Shown: positions 12,002 to 53,102 of the stretch, piece by piece
Layout of the letters: every line of letters starts with the position of its first letter
Numbering within the stretch: position 1 is the stretch's first letter
From: a virus
Taxonomy: Duplodnaviria > Heunggongvirae > Uroviricota > Caudoviricetes
Reading direction: 5' to 3' (one strand)
Virus record (IMG/VR): IMGVR_UViG_3300032330_001391
Coordinates: 1 to 53,102 of that record
Length of the DNA: 53,102 nucleotides
The notes under the pieces: generated by a model
Seen by the model: the letters and a program-made list of their open reading frames with translations, nothing else
Database searches by the model: none
What the model was told of the DNA's origin: nothing
Translations under genes and position numbers: made by a program

Positions 12002-13093
12002 TTACTTTTTAATACCGGCTAATTTTTGCATTCTTTCAAACGCGGAATTAACTTCGATAATTGGTTGTTTGGTGTTTTGAGCACCAGCGATAACTTTAGA
12101 TGCCATACCTCTTACAGACTCAGTCATAGGACGTTTTGTAGTAGTTTGTGTATTTAAGTTTTCCATCATGGTTTCATACACAAGTCTGGCTTCTTTTTTA
12201 CTTGTAGCTTTGTCAAAAGCAGTTAAAACTTTAACTTTTTGTGACTCGCTTAAGTTTTTAGCTTTAAAGACTTTGTTAGCGTAAAGAAGTTTAGAATTTA
12301 ATAAATTAACTTCACTGAGTTCAGATTTAACTTTGGCTAAAACTCTGTAAGCTTCATTTAATTCTTCTTTCATCTCATAATAAGCTTCAAAATCAACATC
12401 TTGGAATTTAGGTAAGTCTCTCTTATGTTTGCTAGCCTTACTAGTTCTGTCATGCTTTTCATAATAAGCATCAGGTTTAAGATCTTTAGCTTCATCTAAA
12501 TCTTCGTCGTCGTACATTTCAGCTAAGAGTTCATCTAAGTTAATTTCCTCTTCTTCTTCATCTTCAACTTCTATTTCATCTTCAGCACCCATCTCATCTT
12601 CCATACCTTCATGTCCAGCTTCTAATTCGCCAGCTTCGATCATGTCAGAGATAACATCTTCAATGAAATTTTTTAAGTCTTTTTCGGTCATGTCTTCAAT
12701 ATCAAATTCTTCTTCCTCCTCTTCTTCAGCTTCTTCAGCTTCCATTAAGTCGGTGTCTGATTCTGAGCTTGGGGTAACATTACCGTGGGCTCCTTGCCCT
12801 CTAGGGTCATTAATAACTTCTTCCATGTCGTTAAGTTCTCTTAGAAGTTCATCTAAGTCTAACTCATCCATGGAATCTTCATTTTCGTACATAGATTCTT
12901 CATCCATGTCCATCTCTTCTGTTATGTCTTCCTCATCCATATTCTCATCTATTTCAGCCAATTTAGCGGCTAATTTTTCTTTAAGATACGGAGTGAAAGT
13001 TTCTTCAAGAGCTACTTTTGCATTGGCGATCGCTGTCTCTTTTATAGCTTTAGCGTCGGCAATGGCTTCTTTCAGAATGTCTCTGTTTGCCAT
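12002..13093 (-). CDS. Prohead scaffold/core protein (gp22-like position)
   Basis: Very acidic and coiled-coil-like; between protease and capsid genes; many L/I-x-E sites; ends ERMQKLAGIKK. Probable start MANRDILKE. Confidence 0.75.
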   Translation of the reverse strand: MANRDILKEAIADAKAIKETAIANAKVALEETFTPYLKEKLAAKLAEIDENMDEEDITEEMDMDEESMYENEDSMDELDLDELLRELNDMEEVINDPRGQGAHGNVTPSSESDTDLMEAEEAEEEEEEEFDIEDMTEKDLKNFIEDVISDMIEAGELEAGHEGMEDEMGAEDEIEVEDEEEEEINLDELLAEMYDDEDLDEAKDLKPDAYYEKHDRTSKASKHKRDLPKFQDVDFEAYYEMKEELNEAYRVLAKVKSELSEVNLLNSKLLYANKVFKAKNLSESQKVKVLTAFDKATSKKEARLVYETMMENLNTQTTTKRPMTESVRGMASKVIAGAQNTKQPIIEVNSAFERMQKLAGIKK

Positions 13094-13120
13094 AATTTTC
13101 CTCAAATTTTTTGTTGGAAG

Positions 13121-13272: not shown

Positions 13273-13890
13273 TTATATTATAGGACAAGTACCATTAGCG
13301 CAAAGTATTTCAGCTAAAAGAGTATTTACTCTAGAGTATGGATATGTTTTTCTTCTCATTCCTTCATTTAATCCTTCTTTTACTGAGCGCATATATGAAC
13401 CTGGATTAGATGGTGTGCTTACAAAATCCCAACATAATAATTCAAAGTCATCTTGTACTTCCATTGTTCCTTCTCCTAGTGGTTTTAAACTACCCATTCC
13501 ACGAGATGAAACACCTACTTGTACATTATTGTCAATAAGTGCTTTTAATATATTACCAGAAACTGTGGGTAGTATTTCAATTTTACCTATCACTTTATCT
13601 CCATCCCACCATATGTTTCTTATAATATGAGATACATTTTTTAATGAGATAATAGAGGAATCAGGATGATCTAATTCACCTGTTGCTCTATTTTCTTTAA
13701 TACAATCCATGTATTTTTCTATCTCACGTTCCCATAACTCCTTAGGATAATATCTACCATTGCCGTTTTTAACTTCAGCTGTAGCTAATATGCCCTCAAC
13801 AAGTGGATTACCAGATGGAGCTTTAGCACCTTCATGAAGTTGTTCAGGTGATACTGAAAAGGGCATTGTTTCTATTAATACTTGTTTCAT
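13273..13890 (-). CDS. gp21: Prohead maturation protease, T4 gp21-like
   Basis: KNGNGRYYP, GELDHP, GVSSRGMGS and WDFVSTPS motifs. Confidence 0.93.
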   Translation of the reverse strand: MKQVLIETMPFSVSPEQLHEGAKAPSGNPLVEGILATAEVKNGNGRYYPKELWEREIEKYMDCIKENRATGELDHPDSSIISLKNVSHIIRNIWWDGDKVIGKIEILPTVSGNILKALIDNNVQVGVSSRGMGSLKPLGEGTMEVQDDFELLCWDFVSTPSNPGSYMRSVKEGLNEGMRRKTYPYSRVNTLLAEILCANGTCPII

Positions 13891-20085: not shown

Positions 20086-20883
20086 TTATTTTAATAAACT
20101 TATTAATCTATCTTGTGCTTTTTCTAATTCTTTTTTAGCTTTAGTTTTTTCTTTAAGTGCGTCTTTTAATTTTTCTTTTTCTTCTCCTTCAGCTTGTTTA
20201 TATTTTCCTACTATTTCTTTCATTTCTTTTTCTATAGCAGTTAATTCATCTTCTAACTTTTGAAGTCTAACTGAACTTTTATTTGTTTTTGCTGCTGTTT
20301 GAGCTCGTTCATCTTTTTCCTTTTCATTACTTTTTTCTTTAGATGTTGATGTTTTAGGAGTTGATGCTTTAGGTTCTTTAGGTTCTTTAGGTGTTGATGT
20401 TTTAGGTTCTTTAGGTAATTTTTCTCTACCAGCTTCAAGATATGCTGCAAAATCTCCATCTTCTTTTTCAAGAGCAGCTCGAGTAGCTGGGTTATTCCAT
20501 GTAGCTGTATCTTTATTTGTTTGTTTAGCTAATACTTTAATATCTACTTCATTTTCTTTTTCTAAAGCGGATAATAATTGATCTAAGGCATTTTTACCAT
20601 ATTTTTCACCTCTATTTTCTTTATACTTATCTAATGCTTTTTTAAAGCCTTCTTTATCTTTTACTTTATAAAAAGATGCCATTTCATTAAGTGAAATTTC
20701 AGCTACACCAATTGATGTTTGTGTTTTTCTAGCTTGAGATATAGCGTCTTTAACGGTGTCTAAACCAGTTCGTTCAGTTCTAGCTATACTTGGTGCTTCT
20801 GATGGGTCTGTTTTAGAGCCAACCATAGTTAATTCTGAAATTATCATTTCTTTGATAAGTTGTTTAAGTTGAGATTTTTTCAT
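20086..20883 (-). CDS. Hypothetical charged protein with MKKSQLKQLIKE leader and PKEPK low-complexity linker
   Basis: ORF translation; internal IISE and LNE sites. Confidence 0.6.
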   Translation of the reverse strand: MKKSQLKQLIKEMIISELTMVGSKTDPSEAPSIARTERTGLDTVKDAISQARKTQTSIGVAEISLNEMASFYKVKDKEGFKKALDKYKENRGEKYGKNALDQLLSALEKENEVDIKVLAKQTNKDTATWNNPATRAALEKEDGDFAAYLEAGREKLPKEPKTSTPKEPKEPKASTPKTSTSKEKSNEKEKDERAQTAAKTNKSSVRLQKLEDELTAIEKEMKEIVGKYKQAEGEEKEKLKDALKEKTKAKKELEKAQDRLISLLK

Positions 20884-20913: not shown

Positions 20914-22188
20914 TTAATCTAAATAATCATCTACTAATTTTTTCATAACTCTTGCTACATTTGAATTAACATCATATCTATCTCGAAAATAAGATACGTC
21001 TTGATCTATATCATTGTTGTGGCTATATTGTTCCCCATCTTCAATTGTAAAATTTCTTACAAAATAATTAAATCCCCAATTGTTTTCCAAATCATCATGG
21101 ATTTTATTCCACTCTTCTTTAGAATATTTTTTAAAATCATCATAATATATGTCATTAGGATCTATTTCATCATAAGAATGAAATAAAGCCCATTCCCATA
21201 TTTCATAATCCGAATTATATAAATCTGGGTAGTCTATGAATTTGGCTAGATAGTTTATTAATTTACCTTCATTTTCATAACTTACATCTAATTTTAATAA
21301 AGAAGCAATACCAGGATCATTAACTCGCATTTCATTTACAGATCGATTAGAATAATTAATTATATATTTTTTAATATCATTTAAATTTAATATAATCATA
21401 ACCCAAACAAATGTTCCTCCACCTTCACTGTCTGTATAAAACTCTAATATTGGAATTTCATATTGTTTAAGTTTAGATATAAAAGATCTTAATCCATTTA
21501 TGTTAAAATCAGGATTCTCAGATTCAATAGCATCCATAATATTTTCATCACTATATCCAGCCATTATTTCAGGTTCATTATATATAGGAATAGTGAACAT
21601 TAATTCTTTATCTTCATCCAATATATTACCATAATATTCAACGTTATTTTTCTTATCAATGTATATTATTTCATCTTCATTTTCTTTTTTAAAAATAAGA
21701 GAAGAAGGTTCATTAACTCGCATTTCATTAATATCAGATTTTTGATCTTTGATCTTTTTTAAAAAATCTTCAACAGCATACTGATAAAGTTTTTGATCGT
21801 CCTTTACTTCTTTAAGTGCTTTTATATACTTGGGATCATTTATATTTATAATATTTTTATTATTAACTGCGTGCTTTAACATGAGTTCATGACCTAAACG
21901 ATTAGCATACCAGTTAAAATCTCTTTCATCATCAATAAGATCACCTAATGTACCTTTATAACCAATTTGTTTAGCGATATCAAATGCTAAAACATTTGCC
22001 ATTTCACCATCATAAAATTCACTCCAAAAATCCTCAGGATCGTCGGGTATTATATAATCATCCCAATATTCATCTAAGATATCTTTATAAAGATTATAAT
22101 TAGTCCAACGATATTTATTTGGTTCATTAACTCGCATTTCTGTTATAGGGATACCAGCCAATTTTTGCATGCGATAAAATTCACTCAT
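20914..22188 (-). CDS. Modular polyprotein: RMQKLAGI leader plus three EMRVN(E/D)P-delimited acidic domains
   Basis: Motif at 22121-22140, 21707-21729 and 21314-21336. Confidence 0.75.
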   Translation of the reverse strand: MSEFYRMQKLAGIPITEMRVNEPNKYRWTNYNLYKDILDEYWDDYIIPDDPEDFWSEFYDGEMANVLAFDIAKQIGYKGTLGDLIDDERDFNWYANRLGHELMLKHAVNNKNIININDPKYIKALKEVKDDQKLYQYAVEDFLKKIKDQKSDINEMRVNEPSSLIFKKENEDEIIYIDKKNNVEYYGNILDEDKELMFTIPIYNEPEIMAGYSDENIMDAIESENPDFNINGLRSFISKLKQYEIPILEFYTDSEGGGTFVWVMIILNLNDIKKYIINYSNRSVNEMRVNDPGIASLLKLDVSYENEGKLINYLAKFIDYPDLYNSDYEIWEWALFHSYDEIDPNDIYYDDFKKYSKEEWNKIHDDLENNWGFNYFVRNFTIEDGEQYSHNNDIDQDVSYFRDRYDVNSNVARVMKKLVDDYLD

Positions 22189-25372: not shown

Positions 25373-25714
25373 TTATATTATCTCTACTCCTAAGTTTTCA
25401 AGAGCTGTTTCTAAATCACGAACATAAGAATAATTTAAACGATCAATTTGTTTAGCATATGGTCCTTTTTCATAAAAAAGAAAATCATATGAATTTTCAA
25501 GATTTATACCATACGCTTTAAGGGCAAGTTGTAGCAAAGATAACCATTCATCTGTTCCTGTTTCTACCGTACCATCATCTATTACTTCTGGGTATTCTTT
25601 TTGAATTAGTGCTTTTATTTGTGTAGCTTTATCAGGTGACTTAACTTGCATTTCATTAATGCCAGCTAATTTTTGCATGCGTTTAAATTCCTCGCTTAAT
25701 ATTTGTTTTTTCAT
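25373..25714 (-). CDS. Hypothetical acidic protein with EEFKRMQKLAGINEMQVKSP leader
   Basis: ORF translation. Confidence 0.7.
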   Translation of the reverse strand: MKKQILSEEFKRMQKLAGINEMQVKSPDKATQIKALIQKEYPEVIDDGTVETGTDEWLSLLQLALKAYGINLENSYDFLFYEKGPYAKQIDRLNYSYVRDLETALENLGVEII

Positions 25715-30951: not shown

Positions 30952-31608
30952 TTAGTAGTATTGCCAGTAAATATCGTTAGGACCTAATTTTATTTTATAT
31001 AAGCGTGGGTTTGTAGGATCACCGTAAAGCAATTCGGGATCTAATGATATGTATGCTCTATTATCATCACCATCATCTAGCATTATATCATCACCACTGT
31101 TCCAAAAACCATATTGTTCTATATCAGCTCTATACCATCCGTTTAATACATTACTCCAAGATGGTTCATCATCTCTTTTCCATTCAGGTGTATTCCAAAG
31201 TGCGTCTACTAAGATTTTTTTAAATGATGGATTTAACACCATATAATTAGCTAGTTGATCATTATTTTTGAATTTAGGTATAGGTTTATTAACCCGCATT
31301 TCATTTACAGGTTGTTTATCTAGTATTACTCCATAATTCAATAGAAATTCTATAAATGAATCAACATTTCCTTCCCAATAATCTTTTTCTTTGATAAATT
31401 TATATGCTTCACGTTTTCTTAATGTTTTATTATCACGTGACGCCACTTTAAACAGATAGATAGCATCAGATGTATCTTCATCAAAATCATACCTAATATC
31501 ATCCCAGTCTTGATCTAACCATTTTTCAAATTCAGGATTAAGATAATATATTTTATCATCAGGAAAATTAATCCGCATCTCATTTAATACATTTATTAAT
31601 TTTATCAT
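30952..31608 (-). CDS. Two-module protein: MIKLINVLNE leader, EMRINFP and EMRVNKP domains
   Basis: Motifs at 31562-31584 and 31283-31305. Confidence 0.75.
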   Translation of the reverse strand: MIKLINVLNEMRINFPDDKIYYLNPEFEKWLDQDWDDIRYDFDEDTSDAIYLFKVASRDNKTLRKREAYKFIKEKDYWEGNVDSFIEFLLNYGVILDKQPVNEMRVNKPIPKFKNNDQLANYMVLNPSFKKILVDALWNTPEWKRDDEPSWSNVLNGWYRADIEQYGFWNSGDDIMLDDGDDNRAYISLDPELLYGDPTNPRLYKIKLGPNDIYWQYY

Positions 31609-36479: not shown

Positions 36480-37208
36480 TTAAAATACTTCCGGATTTTC
36501 TTTATAGTCTTTATAGCTTACAGTTAAGAACCCTTTATTATTAAACTCACTAAGAGTTCTTGAATAATCTTCATCCCATAGTGGTTCCTTATAACTTATA
36601 CCATCATTGTGTCTTTCTACTAAATATTCTTCTCCAACATAATATCCATAAGCTATAGTAAATTTATTTGTACCTAATTGATTATATAAAGTCACAAATG
36701 GGAGTAATACATCTTCTATATCATCTTTTATTTCTTTTAAAGACATCAATTCTTCTTTATCTGGTTCTACTATTATATGATCACCTTCTATGTATGGTAA
36801 TTCTTCTTGTGATTGCCAATAATCAGTACTATTATTAGCGTCTAAAATATATTTTAATATGCCTTGATTATCATTGTTATTATAATAGTCAACTAATGTT
36901 AATGCATCATTTTTAGTTAAAGTATCTTCAAATATGTCACTTATTGGTCCTTTCATAAATCTATATAGATCTTTAAAACCATAATACCCACCAGCTAAAT
37001 AATTAATATCTTTTTTTAATTCATTAACTACATTTTGTAATGTGTCATTATATTCACTAAATCTTCCACCCATTTCAGAATCAGAATATATAAATTCTAC
37101 TATTATATCTGCGTCAACATCTGTATAAGATTCACTAGTAGCTTTTATATACAATACGCCAGGTTCATTAACCCGCATTTCATTTAATATATCTATTAAT
37201 TTAATCAT
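36480..37208 (-). CDS. Acidic protein with MIKLIDILNEMRVNEP leader
   Basis: Motif at 37162-37184. Confidence 0.75.
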   Translation of the reverse strand: MIKLIDILNEMRVNEPGVLYIKATSESYTDVDADIIVEFIYSDSEMGGRFSEYNDTLQNVVNELKKDINYLAGGYYGFKDLYRFMKGPISDIFEDTLTKNDALTLVDYYNNNDNQGILKYILDANNSTDYWQSQEELPYIEGDHIIVEPDKEELMSLKEIKDDIEDVLLPFVTLYNQLGTNKFTIAYGYYVGEEYLVERHNDGISYKEPLWDEDYSRTLSEFNNKGFLTVSYKDYKENPEVF

Positions 37209-37210
37209 AA

Positions 37211-38674
37211 TTAAATTCTATTTCCGTCCTCATCAAAGTTTTTAACATCTGGATAATACTTTCCAGAGCTATCAAACCATCCAACATATCTATCTTCGTC
37301 TTGACCAGCATATGGGCTATATACTGTTATTTCTTGATTTTTCCTATCAATATTTACGGCAGTATAATAAGCATCGGGTGGTGCACCTAGGGCTGTACTG
37401 TAAGCAAATATGTCTTTTGTTACATGCGTTCCAGGTGATTTTTTAAGTAGATGACGTATTGCTAATAACGCTTTACTATCTTCATCTAAATCTTCATAAT
37501 CTTTTAATCTGTATGTTTCACGCGCAGGTTCATATAAATCAAAACCATAATCTGATTCTCCAAAATACTCTACTAATACCCATAATGCTTCTTCATCTTT
37601 ATTTGTTAATTGTCCTGGAATGTTAATCCGCATTTCTTTTACAGGAATACCCGCTAGTTTTTGCATGCGTTTCATTTCATCCAAACCTTCTAAACCAGTA
37701 TCATCTTTTTTAAGATCAGAGTTTATATCACGCATAGTATAAAACGCCCATCTTTTTTGCTCATTTGTTAATTCATCATTGATAGCATTTTCAACAAATG
37801 AATAAAATTCATCATAATCTGCTATTTTATACAATTCAGCTAAAAATAAATCTCTAACACGAGGATCATCAAATTCAGACTCTACCCATATTTTAGTTAT
37901 ATTATTGTATATATATTGCCCAAATCTTATATCATCTAATTCATTTTTATATGTATCAACTTGATTAGTGACTTTTTTAGCTTCTTCTCCACCTGATTCT
38001 TTACGTTTAGGAAAAGATACATTTACTCTTCCTACTCCTTCTAATTGATCACCATAACGATCAATAACTTGCAATAATTTAGCTATTTGATTTTCATCAT
38101 GATATCCACCAAATATATCATCCATAACTTGAGCATAATCATCAGTTAATTCAGGATTAATAAGATCTAAATAATCTTTGTAATTATAATGACTGAATGC
38201 TCCTCGTACTGCTCCACCTTGTGTTATACTATTTATGATACGTCTTTTTTCAGGAGAAACCTTATTATGGTAAGCTTGTTTAGATATAATCTCATATAAT
38301 CCTTTAGCTATTTCATGCATTAAAATAGGAAATACTAATCCTCGAGCGTGAATTACAATATCATGTTTTTTTAGTAATTCTGGGTCAGTTTGGTATGGTT
38401 TTCCTAATTTGGTATCTTTTCCTAATTTAGCATCTATACCTATCCCAGCATAGTCTATTACAGGATATACTTCTTTAGCTATTTGAACAGCTAAAGCTTC
38501 TAATTCATCCTTATAATCTGCTTCTGCTGCTTCTAATTTATTTACTAAACTAAACGCGTTAGCCTGCATTTGTCCAGGTGATCTTCCTTTTAAAACTTTA
38601 CTAAGAGTATCTTTAGATTTTCCTTTAAGTGTACCTAAAGTTTTAGGTGAGAATATATTTTTGTATTCAGCCAT
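37211..38674 (-). CDS. Hypothetical protein with a C-terminal RMQKLAGI-EMRINIP appended module
   Basis: LDEMKRMQKLAGIPVKEMRINIP at about 37617-37680. Confidence 0.7.
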   Translation of the reverse strand: MAEYKNIFSPKTLGTLKGKSKDTLSKVLKGRSPGQMQANAFSLVNKLEAAEADYKDELEALAVQIAKEVYPVIDYAGIGIDAKLGKDTKLGKPYQTDPELLKKHDIVIHARGLVFPILMHEIAKGLYEIISKQAYHNKVSPEKRRIINSITQGGAVRGAFSHYNYKDYLDLINPELTDDYAQVMDDIFGGYHDENQIAKLLQVIDRYGDQLEGVGRVNVSFPKRKESGGEEAKKVTNQVDTYKNELDDIRFGQYIYNNITKIWVESEFDDPRVRDLFLAELYKIADYDEFYSFVENAINDELTNEQKRWAFYTMRDINSDLKKDDTGLEGLDEMKRMQKLAGIPVKEMRINIPGQLTNKDEEALWVLVEYFGESDYGFDLYEPARETYRLKDYEDLDEDSKALLAIRHLLKKSPGTHVTKDIFAYSTALGAPPDAYYTAVNIDRKNQEITVYSPYAGQDEDRYVGWFDSSGKYYPDVKNFDEDGNRI

Positions 38675-48680: not shown

Positions 48681-49475
48681 TTAACTATCAAGACTAATCT
48701 GGATTTCCGTTGGGAAATATTCAGAATTAGGTTTTATATCTTGATGTTCAAGTTTATATAATTCATGTATGTATCCAAATAGTTTTAAATTTTCTTCTAT
48801 AGATTTTTCAGGTTCATATATTTCCCATCCTTTACCTTGGATATTTTTACCTTTTTTATCTTCACCACGTTTTGATGATTTTAACCAAAGTATACCTACT
48901 CTATCAATTTTTTCTTCATATAATTCATTCCAAGCTTGAGCGTAAGCGGCTAATTGTAAATTATAACTAGTATGTAATGAGTTAGATGTTTTAATATCAA
49001 GTAACCATTTTTCATTATTAATTTCTACAACTAAGTCACAAGTACCAGCATATATAAATTTATCTGAAAAAAGATGTATTTCACTTTCAATTAATGTTGG
49101 TTTATAAGTTGTCCAAAATTCATGAAATTTTAATATCATTTTCCATATATCTAATGAGTATTTAGAATACCCACTTTCATCAAGCCATTCTATTTTTTCT
49201 CCTAATAAATAACGTTCAATAGCATCATGCACTTGTGTACCTTCATCTGCTGCTTTTTTTACAATAATATCAGCATTATGTCCTACATCTTTAAGCCATG
49301 TCTCAAAGAATTTATTTTTAGGAAAATATTGTAAAATACTAGTCACTGATGGGTAGTATTTATCATCTTTAGTATAATATCTTGTATCTAAGATATTTAC
49401 TCTTTTTAATTCTTGGTTAATATTCATAATGCGTTTAACGCTTTTTTTATGAACATTTGTGTTTTTATCTATCAT
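48681..49475 (-). CDS. PD-(D/E)xK exonuclease (Cas4/RecB-like phage exonuclease)
   Basis: YPSVTSIL, GTQVH, ESE, AGTCDL, LLDIKTS and QLAAY motifs. Confidence 0.8.
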   Translation of the reverse strand: MIDKNTNVHKKSVKRIMNINQELKRVNILDTRYYTKDDKYYPSVTSILQYFPKNKFFETWLKDVGHNADIIVKKAADEGTQVHDAIERYLLGEKIEWLDESGYSKYSLDIWKMILKFHEFWTTYKPTLIESEIHLFSDKFIYAGTCDLVVEINNEKWLLDIKTSNSLHTSYNLQLAAYAQAWNELYEEKIDRVGILWLKSSKRGEDKKGKNIQGKGWEIYEPEKSIEENLKLFGYIHELYKLEHQDIKPNSEYFPTEIQISLDS

Positions 49476-50398
49476 AATGTAAGTTTTTTATATAATAAGT
49501 CTGAGAATGTTAATGGTTCTGTATCTTGTATTATGTGGGTGAAATTTTTAAATCCCATGTCTGATGGGTCTTTATCTTGCATGTTTACTAAATATACTTC
49601 TTTACCTTCATTCATAAGCTGTTGACAAAATTCTAATGCCTTTTTTTGAGCATCTTTATCTAAAGCTATATAAATTTTCTTAACAGAAGACATAACAATA
49701 CGCTTCATAAGACTAGACTGTATATTTTTACCTAACAGCGGTATAACATTACGTTTTATAGCTATAGCGTCAAATGGCCCTTCACATAATATTAATGGTA
49801 AATCCCAATTTATAAAAAATTCAAAAGGTATAATATTACGAGATGAATTAGGATTTTTATATTTTATTGGATTTTCTTTTTCAAAACTACGAGCAGTAAA
49901 ATAGTTTAATATACCATTTTCATCATATGAAGGTACAATTATACGATTAGCATAAGTTCCAGCTTCACAATATCCTAAATTATATTTAATTATGTCATCT
50001 TCTGTTATACCTCGTTTTTTAAGATATGTTAAAGCATGTTTAGCTATTACTGAATTAGTAATGTTTGTTAGTGGTATAAATTCTTTAGGCAGATGTACTT
50101 TATCTGTTACAGTAGATATACTATCTTGAGTATTTACTTTTATGTATGGTTTTAATTCTGCTATTTTTTCTTTAGGTGTATCTATAGCTTTAAGCAATTG
50201 AATTAATTTTTTACCACGTTTATCACAAGCCCAACAGTGCCATTGATTAATACCTTCACTATTTTCTGTGAAATTTATTTCAAGTTTAGGTTTATGATGT
50301 TTACAAAAAGGGCAATGATAAGCATAGTTACCTTTAGATGTAGATTTACCACTACCTAAAATAGAATTGATTATTGCAATTAAAGCTTGATTTACCAT
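49472..50398 (-). CDS. DNA primase (Zn finger plus TOPRIM)
   Basis: CPFC..H..CWAC, YLKKRG, RIIVP, ARSF, CEGPFDA and ALDKDA motifs. Confidence 0.85.
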   Translation of the reverse strand: MVNQALIAIINSILGSGKSTSKGNYAYHCPFCKHHKPKLEINFTENSEGINQWHCWACDKRGKKLIQLLKAIDTPKEKIAELKPYIKVNTQDSISTVTDKVHLPKEFIPLTNITNSVIAKHALTYLKKRGITEDDIIKYNLGYCEAGTYANRIIVPSYDENGILNYFTARSFEKENPIKYKNPNSSRNIIPFEFFINWDLPLILCEGPFDAIAIKRNVIPLLGKNIQSSLMKRIVMSSVKKIYIALDKDAQKKALEFCQQLMNEGKEVYLVNMQDKDPSDMGFKNFTHIIQDTEPLTFSDLLYKKLTL

Positions 50399-50405
50399 AT
50401 AACCT

Positions 50406-50437
50406 ATAATATACCATCTTAAAATTAGATAGCCAAA
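50406..50437 (-). promoter_or_regulatory. Bacteroidota-type promoter upstream of primase
   Basis: TTTG-N20-TATATTAT. Confidence 0.55.
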
Positions 50438-50874
50438 TCTTTTGGAAAAAATTTTCCTAGTATATTACTATTTACCCATATCTTATCATCAGCTAATACA
50501 TCGTATTCAAATAGATATTTTGTTTCATAGTAGGTTAACTCTTTTGAGGACAAGCATAGACGTAACACTACACGTTGTAATTTTTCAGGTGGTATAGATT
50601 TAGCCCATTGTTTAACTTCATCAGCTGAGCCGTAATATGTCTTCCAATCTGATTCTTTTATTATTTTTTTCTTAGATGGAATACGGCCACGTTGAGTAGG
50701 TAAGGATGCTAATTCTTTCTTACCTAGTTTTTTATTTGTTGTATGTTTAAATATTTTTTTACCAATATATTGACGACCATTTTCTAGATTAGTTGTCATA
50801 TAAACGTAACCATAATATTCATCTATATTAAATGTAGGATCGTTGATTAAATCATCAACTAATAGTGGTTTCAT
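50425..50874 (-). CDS. GIY-YIG family (Seg-like) nuclease
   Basis: GYVYMTTNLENGRQYIGKK, YYGS, ELTYYE and NSNI motifs. Confidence 0.7.
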   Translation of the reverse strand: MKPLLVDDLINDPTFNIDEYYGYVYMTTNLENGRQYIGKKIFKHTTNKKLGKKELASLPTQRGRIPSKKKIIKESDWKTYYGSADEVKQWAKSIPPEKLQRVVLRLCLSSKELTYYETKYLFEYDVLADDKIWVNSNILGKFFPKDLAI

Positions 50875-50887
50875 AACTTGTGATATA

Positions 50888-51397
50888 TTACATATAAATA
50901 TTACCTTCAACACCCGGTGCCATTTGTCTAATTTCTTCTTCGGTATGTGATTTGGAAAGTGGAGTATTACTTAAAGAAAGATAATCTTTAACTTCTAAAT
51001 TAGGAGGTAATGATGCGATTAGAGTATCACTTAAATGAAGACTCCATCCAACTTTTAAATCAGGAGGTAATGATGTAATTGGGGCACCAATTAAATAAAG
51101 ATCACCTCCAACATTTAAACCAGGAGGTAATGATTTAATTGGGGTACCACGTAAATCAAGATTACCTCCAACTTCTAAATCAGAAGGTAATGACATAATT
51201 AGAGTATCACGTAAATCAAGATTACCTCCAACTTTTAAACCAGGAGGTAATGATTTAATTGGAGTATCCATTAAATTAAGATCACCTGTTCCTCCATTTC
51301 TTATGTAATCTCTTGCTTGTTGATTGGCTAGTTGGAGTGGAGTTAATTTAGGTGGGTTAACTCTCATTTCTTTCAGTATGTCAAGTAATTTTATCAT
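50888..51397 (-). CDS. LRR protein 1 (five full 20-aa repeats plus cap)
   Basis: MIKLLDILKEMRVNPP leader; 60-bp period; start follows TATTTATA. Confidence 0.85.
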   Translation of the reverse strand: MIKLLDILKEMRVNPPKLTPLQLANQQARDYIRNGGTGDLNLMDTPIKSLPPGLKVGGNLDLRDTLIMSLPSDLEVGGNLDLRGTPIKSLPPGLNVGGDLYLIGAPITSLPPDLKVGWSLHLSDTLIASLPPNLEVKDYLSLSNTPLSKSHTEEEIRQMAPGVEGNIYM

Positions 51398-51398
51398 G

Positions 51399-51905
51399 TT
51401 ATATAAATATTGCACTTTTGATACCTGGTGACATTAATCTAATTTGGTCTTCTGTATGTGATTTAGCAAGTGGGGTATTATATAAAAAAAGACTACCCCA
51501 AACTTCTAAATCAGGAGGTAATGATGTGATTAGTGTATTGTGTAAATTAAGATAACTTCCAACTTTTAAGCCAGATGGTAATGATGTGATTGGAGCATTA
51601 ATTAAAGAAAGACTACCTTCAATTTCTAAATTAGGAGGCAATGATGTAATAGGAGTATTATCTAAAGAAAGGCTACCTTCAACTTTTAAATCAGGAGGTA
51701 ATGATGTGATTAAAGTATCATCTAGACTAAGTTTACCTCCAACCTTTAAGCCAGAAGGTAATGATTTAATTGGAGTATATGCTAAACCAAGATCACCTAT
51801 TCCTCCATTCCTTATGTAATCTCTTATTCTATTCTGAGCTGATTGGAGTGGAGTTAATTTCATATTAACTCTCATTTCATTCAATATATTTATTAGTTTT
51901 ATCAT
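51399..51905 (-). CDS. LRR protein 2 (five full 20-aa repeats plus cap)
   Basis: MIKLINILNEMRVNM leader; repeat xLxLxxTxIxSLPxxLxVxG. Confidence 0.85.
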   Translation of the reverse strand: MIKLINILNEMRVNMKLTPLQSAQNRIRDYIRNGGIGDLGLAYTPIKSLPSGLKVGGKLSLDDTLITSLPPDLKVEGSLSLDNTPITSLPPNLEIEGSLSLINAPITSLPSGLKVGSYLNLHNTLITSLPPDLEVWGSLFLYNTPLAKSHTEDQIRLMSPGIKSAIFI

Positions 51906-51906
51906 A

Positions 51907-52353
51907 TTATATAAAAATTTCACCTTCAACTCTAGGTATCATTTGTTTAATTTGTTCTAGGGTGTGTGATTTAGAAAGTGGAGTATTACTTAAACTAAGA
52001 TAACCTTTAACCTTTAAATCAGAGGGTAATGATGTGATTAAAGTATCACTTAAATTAAGATTACCCCCAACTTTTAAACCAGGAGGTAATGATGTAATTG
52101 GAGTATAATATAAATAGATATGACCTCCAACTTTTAGATTAGGAGGTAATGATTTAATTGGTGTATTTTCTAAATCAAGATTACCTCCAACCTTTAAGCC
52201 AGAAGGTAATGATCTAATTGGTGTATTTTCTAAATCAAGATTACCTACTTCCCCATTTTTTATGTAATCTCTTATTCTATTTTGAGCTAATTGAAGTGGA
52301 GTTAATTGTGTATTAACTTTCATTTCTTTTAATATGTCGAGTAGTTTTATCAT
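51907..52353 (-). CDS. LRR protein 3 (four full 20-aa repeats plus cap)
   Basis: MIKLLDILKEMKVNT leader; same repeat and caps. Confidence 0.85.
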   Translation of the reverse strand: MIKLLDILKEMKVNTQLTPLQLAQNRIRDYIKNGEVGNLDLENTPIRSLPSGLKVGGNLDLENTPIKSLPPNLKVGGHIYLYYTPITSLPPGLKVGGNLNLSDTLITSLPSDLKVKGYLSLSNTPLSKSHTLEQIKQMIPRVEGEIFI

Positions 52354-52354
52354 A

Positions 52355-53102
52355 TTACATATCTATATTTACTAGTATTGTAGTATCTGTAGTAGCACTA
52401 GTAGGTAATGGTTGGGATAATTTACCTACAGCAAGTAAATTTTGCATTTCATCATATAAACCTACTGTTGTTACATATGGTGACCACTGTGAACTTGTTG
52501 TATAAGAATATAATGATCCGCTTGTATTTGACTGGAGTGTAGGATTTAATGTATAATTAAATTCATTTTCTCTGAATGTACATTTATATTGAGTTTCATA
52601 TATAGTGTAAGATGAAGAGAATGAGCATGTAATATCAGTAGCATAATATATCTGCCAATAATCTGAAGGAGGGTTAGGTATAATAATCATACCATGTGGG
52701 TAAAATATATTTCCTATTATAGTACTGCCTGATCTTATATTACCTTCACCGTCGTCTGTAAACAAAAGTATTGTACTTCGATCATCATCATAATATCTAA
52801 GACAAAATGAATTAGGTTGAATATAATCACCAAATAAACGTGAGGGAATAGATATTACATTTATGCTAGCATCAGAATACGTTGGAAAACTCTTAGCAAA
52901 TGTTAATGTGGTTTGTAGATAATTATCATACATACCTGGTGATGGAGTAGTACCTACTAAAATATTTCCTTCAGTATTAGCACCAGGTATTAAACTAGAT
53001 GAGTTAGCTGGATCTCCGTAACTAGAACTTAGATAATTTGAGTAATATAGTTGCTGTATAGAATCATATACTAATTCTCGATCATAGGTAGTTATATATC
53101 CT
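52355..53102 (-). CDS. Probable virion structural protein, partial (5' end beyond window end)
   Basis: The frame of ORF 52355-52933 has no stop up to 53102 (..YDSIQQLYYSNY..); PYVTTVGLYD..LLAVGKLSQP C-terminus. Confidence 0.65.
   Translation of the reverse strand, partial: GYITTYDRELVYDSIQQLYYSNYLSSSYGDPANSSSLIPGANTEGNILVGTTPSPGMYDNYLQTTLTFAKSFPTYSDASINVISIPSRLFGDYIQPNSFCLRYYDDDRSTILLFTDDGEGNIRSGSTIIGNIFYPHGMIIIPNPPSDYWQIYYATDITCSFSSSYTIYETQYKCTFRENEFNYTLNPTLQSNTSGSLYSYTTSSQWSPYVTTVGLYDEMQNLLAVGKLSQPLPTSATTDTTILVNIDM

What the first reader, a model, noticed from the sequence alone, without database searches (positions are those of the whole stretch)
50888..52353. Tandem trio of VLR-like LRR proteins with hypervariable concave faces and a cargo leader
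Seen: three paralogues share a leader (MIKLxxILxE-M(R/K)VN), an N-cap (LTPLQxA..RDYI.NG) and a C-cap (TPL.KSHT.EQI..M.P). They carry 5, 5 and 4 full repeats with an exact 60-bp period. The framework xLxLxxTxIxSLPxxLxVxG is nearly fixed, while strand positions 1, 3, 5 and 6 vary freely (NLDLEN, HIYLYY, NLNLSD, DLGLAY, KLSLDD, SLSLIN, YLNLHN, SLFLYN, DLNLMD, NLDLRG, DLYLIG, SLHLSD). Established: these x positions form the ligand-binding concave sheet of LRR solenoids, and lamprey VLRs diversify by assembling LRR cassettes between fixed caps. Inference: a phage-encoded repertoire of variable binders, diversified by repeat shuffling or gene conversion and injected from the head, possibly to sequester host defence proteins.
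Basis: partly seen in the sequence, partly recalled or inferred. Interest (0 to 1): 0.82.

Follow-up and report, generated by a model that had tools for sequence, protein, structure and literature searches.

The report
Head-tagged variable LRR binders in phage
A T4-like phage carries three tandem genes for small leucine-rich-repeat binding proteins whose predicted binding strand evolves unusually fast, and whose short N-terminal tag, shared with unrelated proteins of the same phage, looks like the signal T4 uses to load proteins into its head for injection; neither loading nor a target has been measured.

Summary
There are three minus-strand paralogues (148, 168 and 169 aa) with 4, 5 and 5 exact 20-aa repeats, and they share a leader, an N-cap and a C-cap.

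The window is the start of a complete 160.9-kb T4-superfamily phage. Its nearest cultured relative is Flavobacterium phage immuto.

**Cargo leader: supported by sequence, unproven.**
- MIKLxxxLxE also opens three unrelated ORFs of this genome, one of them an ADP-ribosyltransferase fold.
- It is followed by E-M-R-V-N-x-P. This motif occurs 14 times in the genome, always after L/I/V-x-E, the type of site the T4 head protease cuts.
- The phage encodes a Peptidase_S77 head protease.

**Hypervariability: supported.**
- Strand positions 2, 4, 6 and 7 have pN/pS 1.87 (CI 1.58-2.19).
- Other exposed positions have 0.93 and the framework has 0.26.

**Turnover among relatives: shown.**
- The same genomic slot holds 0 to 3 LRR genes.
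- Repeat number ranges from 2 to 13.
- One relative carries a perfect chimeric paralogue.

**Not supported.**
- Kinship or mechanism shared with lamprey VLRs: there are no Cys caps, the period is 20 aa, and no reverse transcriptase is present.

Packaging, injection and the target remain inferred.

The family is large, almost entirely viral and unannotated. Its nearest solved relative is Vibrio FlrP.

This scan has already reported similar leader-tagged LRR arrays in other phage genomes.

The parts
51907..52353 (-). LRR1, 148 aa. Leader aa 1-10 (52353-52324), joint E-M-K-V-N, N-cap helix aa 19-32, four 20-aa repeats aa 37-116 (52245-52006), C-cap aa 117-148.
   Evidence: ORF and sequence. AF2 model with pLDDT 92.7, in which residues 1-20 have low confidence. 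Repeat register.
51399..51905 (-). LRR2, 168 aa. Leader 51905-51876, five repeats aa 37-136 (51797-51498), C-cap.
50888..51397 (-). LRR3, 169 aa. Leader 51397-51368, five repeats aa 38-137 (51286-50987), C-cap. Repeats 1, 3 and 4 are recent duplicates of one another.
51402..51409 (-). TATTTATA promoter-like motif inside the last codons of LRR2, 4 nt before the LRR3 ATG. A second copy lies at 50900-50893 inside the end of LRR3.
   Evidence: The motif is strand-biased (ATATTTATA occurs 38 times on the coding strand and 2 on the other). It also sits just upstream of the TerL, portal and cargo genes.
52355..53102 (-). 3' part of the 306-aa gene (it runs to 53275 outside the window). This is the last gene of the run of genes that follows the baseplate-wedge gene, and it is used here as the synteny anchor.
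   Evidence: ORFs, baseplate wedge PHROG hit upstream, 72 related loci.
50425..50874 (-). SegE-like GIY-YIG endonuclease gene (start most likely the ATG at 50874). It borders the variable slot and is conserved at this position in most relatives.
   Evidence: Pfam SegE_GIY-YIG, E 1e-26. Synteny.
49472..50398 (-). DnaG-type primase.
   Evidence: Pfam and PHROG hits.
36480..37208 (-). Unrelated 242-aa ORF with the same leader and joint (MIKLIDILNEMRVNEP).
30952..31608 (-). Unrelated 218-aa ORF with the same leader (MIKLINVLNEMRINFP) and a second internal joint (PVNEMRVNKP).
13273..13890 (-). Prohead protease (Peptidase_S77, the T4 gp21 family), the presumed reader of the L/I/V-x-E joint.
   Evidence: Pfam E 1e-28.
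12002..13105 (-). Acidic scaffold-like protein in the gp22 position. It ends in ...FERMQKLAGIKK, a motif copied at the front of other joint-bearing proteins.

Best explanation
The three genes encode small (15-17 kDa once processed), cysteine-free LRR solenoids built from 20-residue repeats between helical caps.

**Proposed mechanism**
1. The first ten residues (MIKLLDILKE) are not part of the fold. They are this phage lineage's counterpart of the T4 capsid targeting sequence (CTS): an amphipathic tag that brings late-made proteins into the prohead core.
2. The gp21-type protease then removes the tag by cutting after Glu10 (L-K/N-E | M-R-V-N).
3. The mature binders stay in the head and enter the host with the DNA.
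4. In the host, the face formed by strand positions 2, 4, 6 and 7 binds host proteins. The most plausible targets are defence proteins that act before any phage gene can be expressed.

An arms race keeps that face under diversifying selection. Homologous recombination between the near-identical repeat frameworks and leaders creates new repeat combinations, repeat numbers and gene copies.

**Shown here**
- The LRR fold (predicted, with a solved sequence relative).
- The position-specific excess of amino-acid change.
- Copy-number, repeat-number and chimera variation among relatives.
- The leader shared with unrelated proteins.
- Presence of the protease.

**Inferred**
- Packaging, cleavage, injection, and what is bound.
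For: **Fold**
- AF2 model: pLDDT 92.7 and pTM 0.85, one short strand on L-x-L per repeat, helical caps.
- Foldseek: Leptospira LRRs, IpaH/SspH1/YopM LRR domains, and VLRs further down the list.
- Profile against PDB sequences: Vibrio FlrP (8Z5U), E 1.4e-38.

**Leader**
- The same MIKL(I/L)(D/N)xL(K/N)E opens six ORFs of the genome, three of them unrelated to LRRs. Synonymous codon differences show that the conservation is at the protein level.
- One of these ORFs (G000:134049-134675) models as an ADP-ribosyltransferase fold, the class of T4 Alt.
- In both AF2 models the leader is a low-confidence helix separate from the domain.
- E-M-R-V/I-N occurs 14 times in the genome. All copies are in frame and all follow L/I/V-x-E. 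They lie in ORFs near the head module.
- The phage has Gp23, gp20 and a Peptidase_S77 protease.
- T4 CTS = MKTYQEFIAE (PMC8442874). gp21-type proteases cut after Glu and remove the propeptides of the IPs and Alt (PMC5694885). T4 Ip1-3 share only the leader, and each blocks one GmrSD variant (PMC12373910).
- The leader recurs on unrelated ORFs next to LRR genes in other phages: 16 cases in 79 loci. It is found on five ORFs of a second complete genome and on one ORF of the cultured phage immuto.
- All five large LRR-bearing phage records tested encode an S77 protease.

**Selection**
- dN/dS at positions 2, 4, 6 and 7 is 2.8 against 0.24 for the framework in the window, and 2.2 against 0.46 in an independent array.
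- Across 157 independent close pairs of 478 distinct repeat units, pN/pS is 1.87 (CI 1.58-2.19), against 0.93 for other exposed positions and 0.26 for the core.

**Turnover**
- The slot between the 306-aa gene and SegE holds 0, 1, 2 or 3 LRR genes, or another leader-bearing ORF.
- There are 1 to 10 copies per locus and 2 to 13 repeats per gene.
- A perfect chimera is present in L008 and absent from the near-identical L009.
- A close relative has mosaic caps and repeats.
Against: - No proteomic, N-terminal or genetic evidence exists for packaging, cleavage or injection, here or in any relative I could find.
- The LRR module is not tied to the leader. Some family members start with other N-termini (NLFKFIEDK type). 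Edwardsiella phage Edno5_0047 carries the same repeats in the early region of a temperate phage, without the leader. Bacterial FlrP has a Sec signal instead.
- In other phages the LRR leader is followed by (K)ILVPRRS.EER, which I did not find on non-LRR ORFs. The joint therefore co-varies with the genome only in this phage.
- An earlier follow-up on another genome read a shared LRR N-terminus as a cap helix of an early protein (e1-1679040).
- The genes follow the run of genes downstream of the baseplate-wedge gene. This position would also suit a tail or adhesin role.
- The mature proteins have pI 5.1-9.2, so they are not uniformly basic like the T4 IPs.
- The selection estimates use simple Nei-Gojobori counting on recombining repeats of an AT-rich genome.
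- Solvent exposure of the variable positions rests on the strand register and general LRR knowledge, not on measured coordinates.
Confidence: 0.55

Rival explanations
1. The LRR proteins act inside the infected cell after ordinary expression and are not packaged. The shared N-terminus has another role, for example a recombination handle between cassettes, a translation-start context, or a tag for some other assembly or turnover process.
For: - Family members exist without the leader, and a temperate siphovirus carries the repeats in its early region.
- An earlier follow-up reached this reading in another genome (e1-1679040).
- The near-identical leader DNA would itself favour recombination.
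Against: - Here the leader lies outside the cap helix, with low pLDDT, and it sits on an ART-fold protein and on two other unrelated ORFs.
- It ends in L-x-E followed by the motif that is repeated 14 times in ORFs near the head module.
- Codon differences show that selection acts on the peptide.
- LRR3 is preceded by the same TATTTATA motif as the TerL and portal genes.
Confidence: 0.2
2. The proteins are tail or fibre accessories, such as adhesins or fibre-tip adaptors. In this reading the variable face recognises host surface structures, which would explain their place at the end of the run of genes that follows the baseplate-wedge gene.
For: - They lie directly downstream of that run of genes, with single-base gene spacing.
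- A variable binding face suits receptor recognition.
Against: - In most relatives with the same synteny the slot is empty, so the genes are dispensable for the tail.
- In other phages the LRR genes lie elsewhere, next to other leader-bearing genes.
- The T4-type protease motif would be unexpected on a tail protein.
Confidence: 0.1
3. The variation is relaxed constraint in a drifting repeat family and has no specific binding function.
For: - No target is known.
- Other exposed positions evolve at about the neutral rate (0.93).
Against: - pN/pS at positions 2, 4, 6 and 7 is 1.87 (CI 1.58-2.19). It exceeds the other exposed positions 1.6- to 2.5-fold.
- The residue choice is biased towards D, N, S, Y, H and R.
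- ORFs and framework are kept intact in hundreds of phages.
Confidence: 0.07
4. Programmed diversification: either a diversity-generating retroelement or VLR-like cassette copying within one phage genome.
For: Variable codons are mostly NAT or NGT, which superficially resembles DGR targets.
Against: - There is no reverse transcriptase in the complete genome.
- There are no extra silent repeats or template copies.
- Differences are not restricted to adenine positions.
Confidence: 0.02

Closest known systems
Phage T4 internal proteins IPI, IPII, IPIII and Alt, with the capsid targeting sequence
   Same: - A leader of about 10 residues shared by otherwise unrelated proteins. T4 has MKTYQEFIAE and this phage has MIKLLDILKE. 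The two share M1, hydrophobic 4, acidic 6, hydrophobic 7-8 and E10.
- The leader ends in L/I-x-E, and a gp21-family protease is encoded.
- The cargo genes are non-essential, variable and clustered.
- An ART-fold cargo parallels Alt.
- Known Ips are specific inhibitors of fast-evolving defence nucleases (PMC8442874, PMC5694885, PMC12373910).
   Different: - The cargo here is a modular repeat binder in paralogous arrays, with a hypervariable face.
- The joint is extended (E-M-R-V-N-x-P).
- The phage is a distant T4 relative near Flavobacterium phage immuto.
- Nothing has been shown biochemically.
FlrP, the LRR protein on the rod of the Vibrio alginolyticus polar flagellar motor (PDB 8Z5U)
   Same: It has the same 20-residue repeat type (GxLxLxxTPIxxLPxGLxVxG). 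The sequence match is E 1e-32 for LRR1 and 1e-38 for the family profile. The solved structure is a beta-solenoid that binds partner proteins (bioRxiv 10.64898/2025.12.04.692373).
   Different: - It is a bacterial periplasmic protein with a Sec signal.
- It is single-copy.
- It lacks the MIKL leader and the phage caps.
- It is a structural spacer, not a variable repertoire.
LRR domains of type III effectors (IpaH, SspH1, SlrP, YopM)
   Same: - Short 20-residue bacterial LRRs containing an (L/I)TSLP motif.
- Helical N-cap.
- Delivered into another cell, where the concave face picks the target.
- Foldseek and profile hits.
   Different: - No E3 ligase domain.
- Different register of the variable segment, with Thr in place of the Asn ladder.
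- Phage-encoded.
- A different delivery route is proposed.
Lamprey and hagfish variable lymphocyte receptors
   Same: Small capped LRR binders whose diversity lies on the concave strand and in the number of repeats. Weak structural and profile hits.
   Different: - VLRs have 24-residue LRRV units and Cys-rich LRRNT/LRRCT caps.
- VLRs are assembled somatically from flanking cassettes.
- None of these features is present here, so the resemblance is analogy only.

Membership tests
Leucine-rich repeat superfamily | Tandem repeats with an LxxLxLxx(N/T)xL core that form a solenoid with a parallel beta-sheet | tested here: met
   The consensus is G-x-L-x-L-x-x-T-P-I-x-S-L-P-x-x-L-x-V-x, in 14 units. 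The AF2 model is a solenoid with pLDDT 92.7. There are LRR hits in the PDB by fold and by profile.
Leucine-rich repeat superfamily | Match to the Pfam LRR models above the gathering score | tested here: not met
   LRR_1 scores 18.1 bits against a cut-off of 20.6. LRR_4 scores 14.6-18.4 bits against a cut-off of 27. There is no PHROG hit. This is a divergent subtype.
T4-type capsid-targeted internal proteins | A short N-terminal leader shared by otherwise unrelated proteins of one phage | tested here: met
   Six ORFs in this genome, three of them non-LRR. Five ORFs in a second complete genome.
T4-type capsid-targeted internal proteins | The leader ends in a hydrophobic-x-Glu site, and a gp21-family prohead protease is encoded | tested here: met
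   L-K/N-E at residues 8-10. All 14 E-M-R-V-N sites are preceded by L/I/V-x-E. Peptidase_S77 hit with E 1e-28.
T4-type capsid-targeted internal proteins | The protein is present in the mature head with the leader removed, and is ejected with the DNA | not testable with these tools
   This needs virion mass spectrometry and injection assays.
Variable lymphocyte receptors | Cys-rich LRRNT and LRRCT caps and 24-residue LRRV units | tested here: not met
   No cysteine in any of the three proteins. The period is 20 residues. The caps are helical.
Variable lymphocyte receptors | Assembly from silent flanking cassettes | tested here: not met
   The genome holds no LRR sequence outside the three complete genes.
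Diversity-generating retroelement targets | A reverse transcriptase and a template repeat in the genome | tested here: not met
   No RVT_1 match in the complete genome, while the control genomes were positive.

The most novel reading that the evidence does not exclude
T4-related phages of aquatic Bacteroidota and their relatives carry an evolving repertoire of pre-made LRR 'antibody-like' binders. These are loaded into the head through a CTS-type leader and injected with the DNA. New specificities arise by recombination between repeat cassettes and by positive selection on four strand positions. The binders neutralise fast-evolving host defences that strike incoming DNA, for example modification-dependent nucleases aimed at 7-deazaguanine DNA. 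The nearest cultured relative has fully replaced G with fdPreQ1 (PMC10516641), and this genome encodes QueC.
Probability: 0.3. Interest if true: 0.88.

Novelty: new variant of a known kind. Interest (0 to 1): 0.7.

Why it matters
Injected phage proteins are known mainly from T4, where each internal protein is a one-off inhibitor of one restriction enzyme variant.

A repeat scaffold with a fast-evolving binding face, copied in arrays and tagged for the head, would be a general way for phages to generate new inhibitors quickly. It would be a viral counterpart of the LRR-based recognition seen in plant R proteins and VLRs.

The family is very large. About 100 ESM Atlas clusters of at least 50 members each match it, nearly all of them viral. 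More than 439 metagenomic homologues were found. No Pfam or PHROG family covers it, so a function would annotate thousands of genes.

The small cysteine-free scaffold, with four defined variable positions per repeat, might also serve as a binder framework.

The shared leader also gives a simple sequence rule for listing candidate injected proteins in uncultured T4-like phages.

Tried and rejected
- **Cultured phage DNA.** blastn of the locus against 50,697 phage records gave no match. tblastn found only the repeat part of Edno5_0047.
- **Family libraries.** PHROGs gave nothing and Pfam gave only sub-threshold LRR hits.
- **DGR.** There is no reverse transcriptase.
- **VLR membership.** Rejected on the caps, the period and the absence of cassettes.
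- **Co-variation of the post-leader joint in other phages.** The ILVPRR motif of other LRRs was not found on non-LRR ORFs in the loci held, and EMRVN was not found outside this genome. That argument therefore rests on this genome alone.
- **Fused partner domains in long family members.** None was found. The only hit was a sub-threshold PBECR3 match in one protein.
- **The three non-LRR leader proteins.** They have no Pfam or PHROG family.
- **The 306-aa anchor gene.** It has no Pfam family (tested on the 248-residue part that lies in the window), no PHROG family and no PDB sequence relative.
- **Association with SegE.** A SegE-like gene lies within 8 kb in only 14 of 79 LRR-centred loci, so it is not a general partner.
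- **Complex prediction.** Not run. The leader's binding partner in the prohead core is unknown, and a negative result would carry no weight.
- **Model coordinates.** These were not available to scripts, so surface exposure could not be computed directly.
Full report
**What is there.** Three ORFs lie head to tail on the minus strand at 52353-51907, 51905-51399 and 51397-50888, separated by single bases. Tandem Repeats Finder reports 60-bp periods with 4.5, 5.3 and 5.5 copies. In protein terms there are 4, 5 and 5 full 20-residue units, each followed by a half unit that merges into the C-cap. The three proteins share the leader MIKL(L/I)(D/N)IL(K/N)E-M(K/R)VN, an N-cap and a C-cap. The genome has no further copies.

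**Genomic setting.** The window is the first 53 kb of a 160,908-bp virus record that CheckV rates as complete.
- It is a T4-superfamily phage. It has a Gp23 capsid protein, a gp20 portal, a Peptidase_S77 (gp21-type) prohead protease, a large terminase and PhoH.
- The nearest cultured relative is Flavobacterium phage vB_FspM_immuto, with 52.6% capsid protein identity.
- The LRR trio ends a long same-strand run of genes that follows a baseplate wedge gene.
- It is followed by a SegE-like GIY-YIG gene and a DnaG primase.

**Fold and relatives.**
- An AlphaFold2 model of LRR1, built on 62 family sequences, has pLDDT 92.7. Residues 1-20 have low confidence and contain a short helix at 4-9. Then come a cap helix (19-32), a regular solenoid with a strand on each L-x-L, and a helical C-cap.
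- Foldseek returns LRR proteins only. Leptospira LRRs score best by TM, followed by the IpaH, SspH1 and YopM LRR domains and then VLRs.
- A family profile matches one solved protein strongly: the Vibrio alginolyticus LRR protein FlrP (8Z5U), E 1.4e-38, which has the same 20-residue unit. FlrP is a periplasmic beta-solenoid that binds the flagellar rod and FliF loops (bioRxiv 10.64898/2025.12.04.692373).
- Pfam LRR models score below their cut-offs, and PHROGs has no family for these proteins.
- The word-indexed search found 439 metagenomic homologues. The ESM Atlas lists about 100 neighbouring clusters, almost all viral.
- Among cultured phages, only Edwardsiella phage Edno5 carries the repeats. 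They sit in an early-region gene that lacks the leader.

**The leader.**
- The same ten residues open three further ORFs of this genome that are unrelated to LRRs and to each other: 31608-30952, 37208-36480 and G000:134675-134049. The codons differ at synonymous sites, so the peptide is what is conserved.
- All homologues of the third ORF keep the leader. Its model matches only ADP-ribosyltransferase folds: Tpt1/KptA, cholera and pertussis toxin A chains, and DarT. T4 Alt, a head-packaged ART, is the obvious parallel.
- After the leader comes E-M-R-V-N-x-P. This pentapeptide occurs 14 times in the genome, always in frame and always preceded by L, I or V two residues before the Glu. It lies in ORFs at 20.9-22.2 kb and 31-38.7 kb near the head module, including a 1278-aa protein with three copies.
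- The acidic scaffold-like protein in the gp22 position ends in RMQKLAGI. This motif precedes the same joint in other such ORFs.
- From the literature: the T4 CTS is MKTYQEFIAE (PMC8442874). T4-type prohead proteases cut after Glu and remove the propeptides of the IPs and Alt (PMC5694885). Ip1-3 share nothing but the leader, and each inhibits one GmrSD variant (PMC12373910).
- The pattern repeats elsewhere. Sixteen non-LRR ORFs with the leader lie within 8 kb of LRR genes in 79 IMG/VR loci. Five ORFs of a second complete 148.6-kb genome carry it. So does one ORF of phage immuto. All five large LRR-bearing records tested encode an S77 protease.
- An earlier follow-up on another genome concluded that a shared LRR N-terminus was only a cap helix (e1-1679040). 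That does not hold here, because the leader sits outside the cap and also on non-LRR folds.
- Packaging and cleavage are still inferences.

**Hypervariability.**
- Among the 14 window repeats, entropy peaks at unit positions 2, 4, 6 and 7. These are the residues that alternate with the buried leucines of the strand, plus the residue after it.
- Nei-Gojobori dN/dS is 2.8 at these positions against 0.24 for the framework. An independent eight-gene array (L008, 48 repeats) gives 2.2 against 0.46.
- Across 478 distinct repeat units from about 150 loci, 157 non-overlapping close pairs give pN/pS 1.87 (bootstrap CI 1.58-2.19). Other exposed positions give 0.93 (0.78-1.11) and the core gives 0.26.
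- The four most recently related repeats (LRR3 R1, R3 and R4 and one repeat of a close relative) differ at 11 nucleotide columns. Ten of these are nonsynonymous and six fall in the four variable codons.
- The residues used are mainly D, N, S, Y, H, G and R.
- Caveats: the counting method is simple, the sequences recombine, the genome is AT-rich, and exposure is inferred from the strand register rather than from coordinates.

**Turnover and recombination.**
- 72 IMG/VR loci share the upstream 306-aa gene. Most of those with enough downstream sequence also share the order 306-aa gene, SegE, primase.
- In most of them the slot before SegE is empty. In others it holds one LRR (3 or 5 repeats), two LRRs (7 and 4 repeats), or a different leader-bearing ORF. 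The window has three LRRs.
- A close relative (L012, which has the same upstream gene end) has a first gene with the caps of window LRR3 and a second gene that mixes features of LRR1 and LRR2.
- In L008, one paralogue is 100% identical to one neighbour over its first 300 nt and to another neighbour over its last 300 nt. It is missing from the near-identical contig L009. This is a fresh product of unequal recombination.
- Across loci there are 1 to 10 copies per locus and 2 to 13 repeats per gene.
- No reverse transcriptase is present and there are no silent cassettes. The diversification is therefore evolutionary, not programmed.

**Mechanism and its limits.** The best reading is a set of head-loaded, protease-trimmed, injected LRR binders under diversifying selection. 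This would be a repeat-protein version of the T4 internal-protein strategy.
- The target is unknown.
- The T4 precedent fits: inhibitors of modification-dependent nucleases must be present before transcription starts.
- The nearest cultured relative replaces all G with fdPreQ1 (PMC10516641). This genome encodes QueC, though no Pfam TGT match was found. These facts make defence nucleases a reasonable guess, but no more than that.
- The rival readings are an unpackaged intracellular role, a tail accessory, neutral drift and programmed diversification. Each is scored separately in the rival explanations.

**Novelty.**
- Capsid-targeted injected proteins are a known kind. An arrayed, hypervariable LRR cargo is a new variant of it.
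- I found no paper describing such a cargo.
- Within this scan it is not new. Similar leader-tagged LRR arrays were reported from several other phage genomes. The joint and leaders of this genome were also noted before.

Noticed in passing
window 51402-51409 and 50893-50900 (minus strand): The promoter-like octamer TATTTATA is embedded in the last codons of LRR2 and LRR3, in two different reading frames (coding ..AIFI* and ..NIYM*). The conserved extreme C-terminus may therefore be shaped partly by a DNA signal for the next gene. The same motif precedes the TerL, portal and several cargo genes. ATATTTATA occurs 38 times on the coding strand and 2 times on the other.
   Followed up: partly
window 50425-50874: The SegE-like GIY-YIG gene is conserved at the same place, directly after the variable slot and before the primase, in most of the 72 related loci. 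This is unusual for a free-standing homing endonuclease. Its position next to a gene-gain and gene-loss hotspot recalls SegB-driven segmental amplification of anti-defence genes in T6 (PMC13096335).
   Followed up: partly
G000:C1:134049-134675 (minus strand; L011:2050-2676): A 208-aa protein with the same MIKLIDLLKE leader. R21, S58-T59-S60 and E107/E110 are invariant across 20 homologues. The AF2 model matches only ADP-ribosyltransferase folds. It is a likely counterpart of T4 Alt.
   Followed up: yes
window 12002-13105, 20914-22188, 25373-25714, 37211-38674: The scaffold-like protein ends in FERMQKLAGIKK. The motif RMQKLAGI recurs at the N-terminus of the 424-aa and 113-aa ORFs and inside the 487-aa ORF, each time a few residues before an E-M-(R/Q) joint. 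This looks like a second address label, copied from the scaffold.
   Followed up: partly
window 20086-20883: A 265-aa Lys/Glu-rich low-complexity protein starts MKKSQLKQLIKEM. This resembles the alternative LRR leader MKLVQLYRQIKEE seen in other phages (P0076, L058). It may be a third leader type and a basic internal protein.
   Followed up: no
L045:13619-14161, L023:7237-8001, L043:2225-2983, L095:3545-4303: Other cargo candidates carry the same leader in related phages. One is a 180-aa ORF with an HTTLLYGLH motif, possibly a 2H phosphoesterase. Another is a recurrent 252-aa P-loop protein (GPAGSGKT), which in L007 is annotated with the Pfam family Zeta_toxin.
   Followed up: no
L039, L054, L036, L071 (LRR genes): A subset of family members has a different N-terminus (..IYNLFKFIEDKK.. 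or ..QFFDFLEKKE..) in place of the MIKL leader. Sometimes these lie in the same array as MIKL-type copies. Edno5_0047 starts similarly (MFDLIKYLDEK). They may be a non-packaged version of the same binder.
   Followed up: no
L083 and L087 (IMG/VR contigs of 296 kb and 75 kb): Arrays of 9-10 paralogues start MIKLKDILLEG...IFVPRR. Their repeats are so divergent that my regular expression for the 20-aa unit did not count them. The family extends into jumbo phages.
   Followed up: no
MW353175.1 24569-24994 (L168:2570-2995): The cultured Flavobacterium phage immuto has one hypothetical 141-aa ORF that starts MIKLIDLLTES. It offers a handle for testing the leader experimentally.
   Followed up: partly
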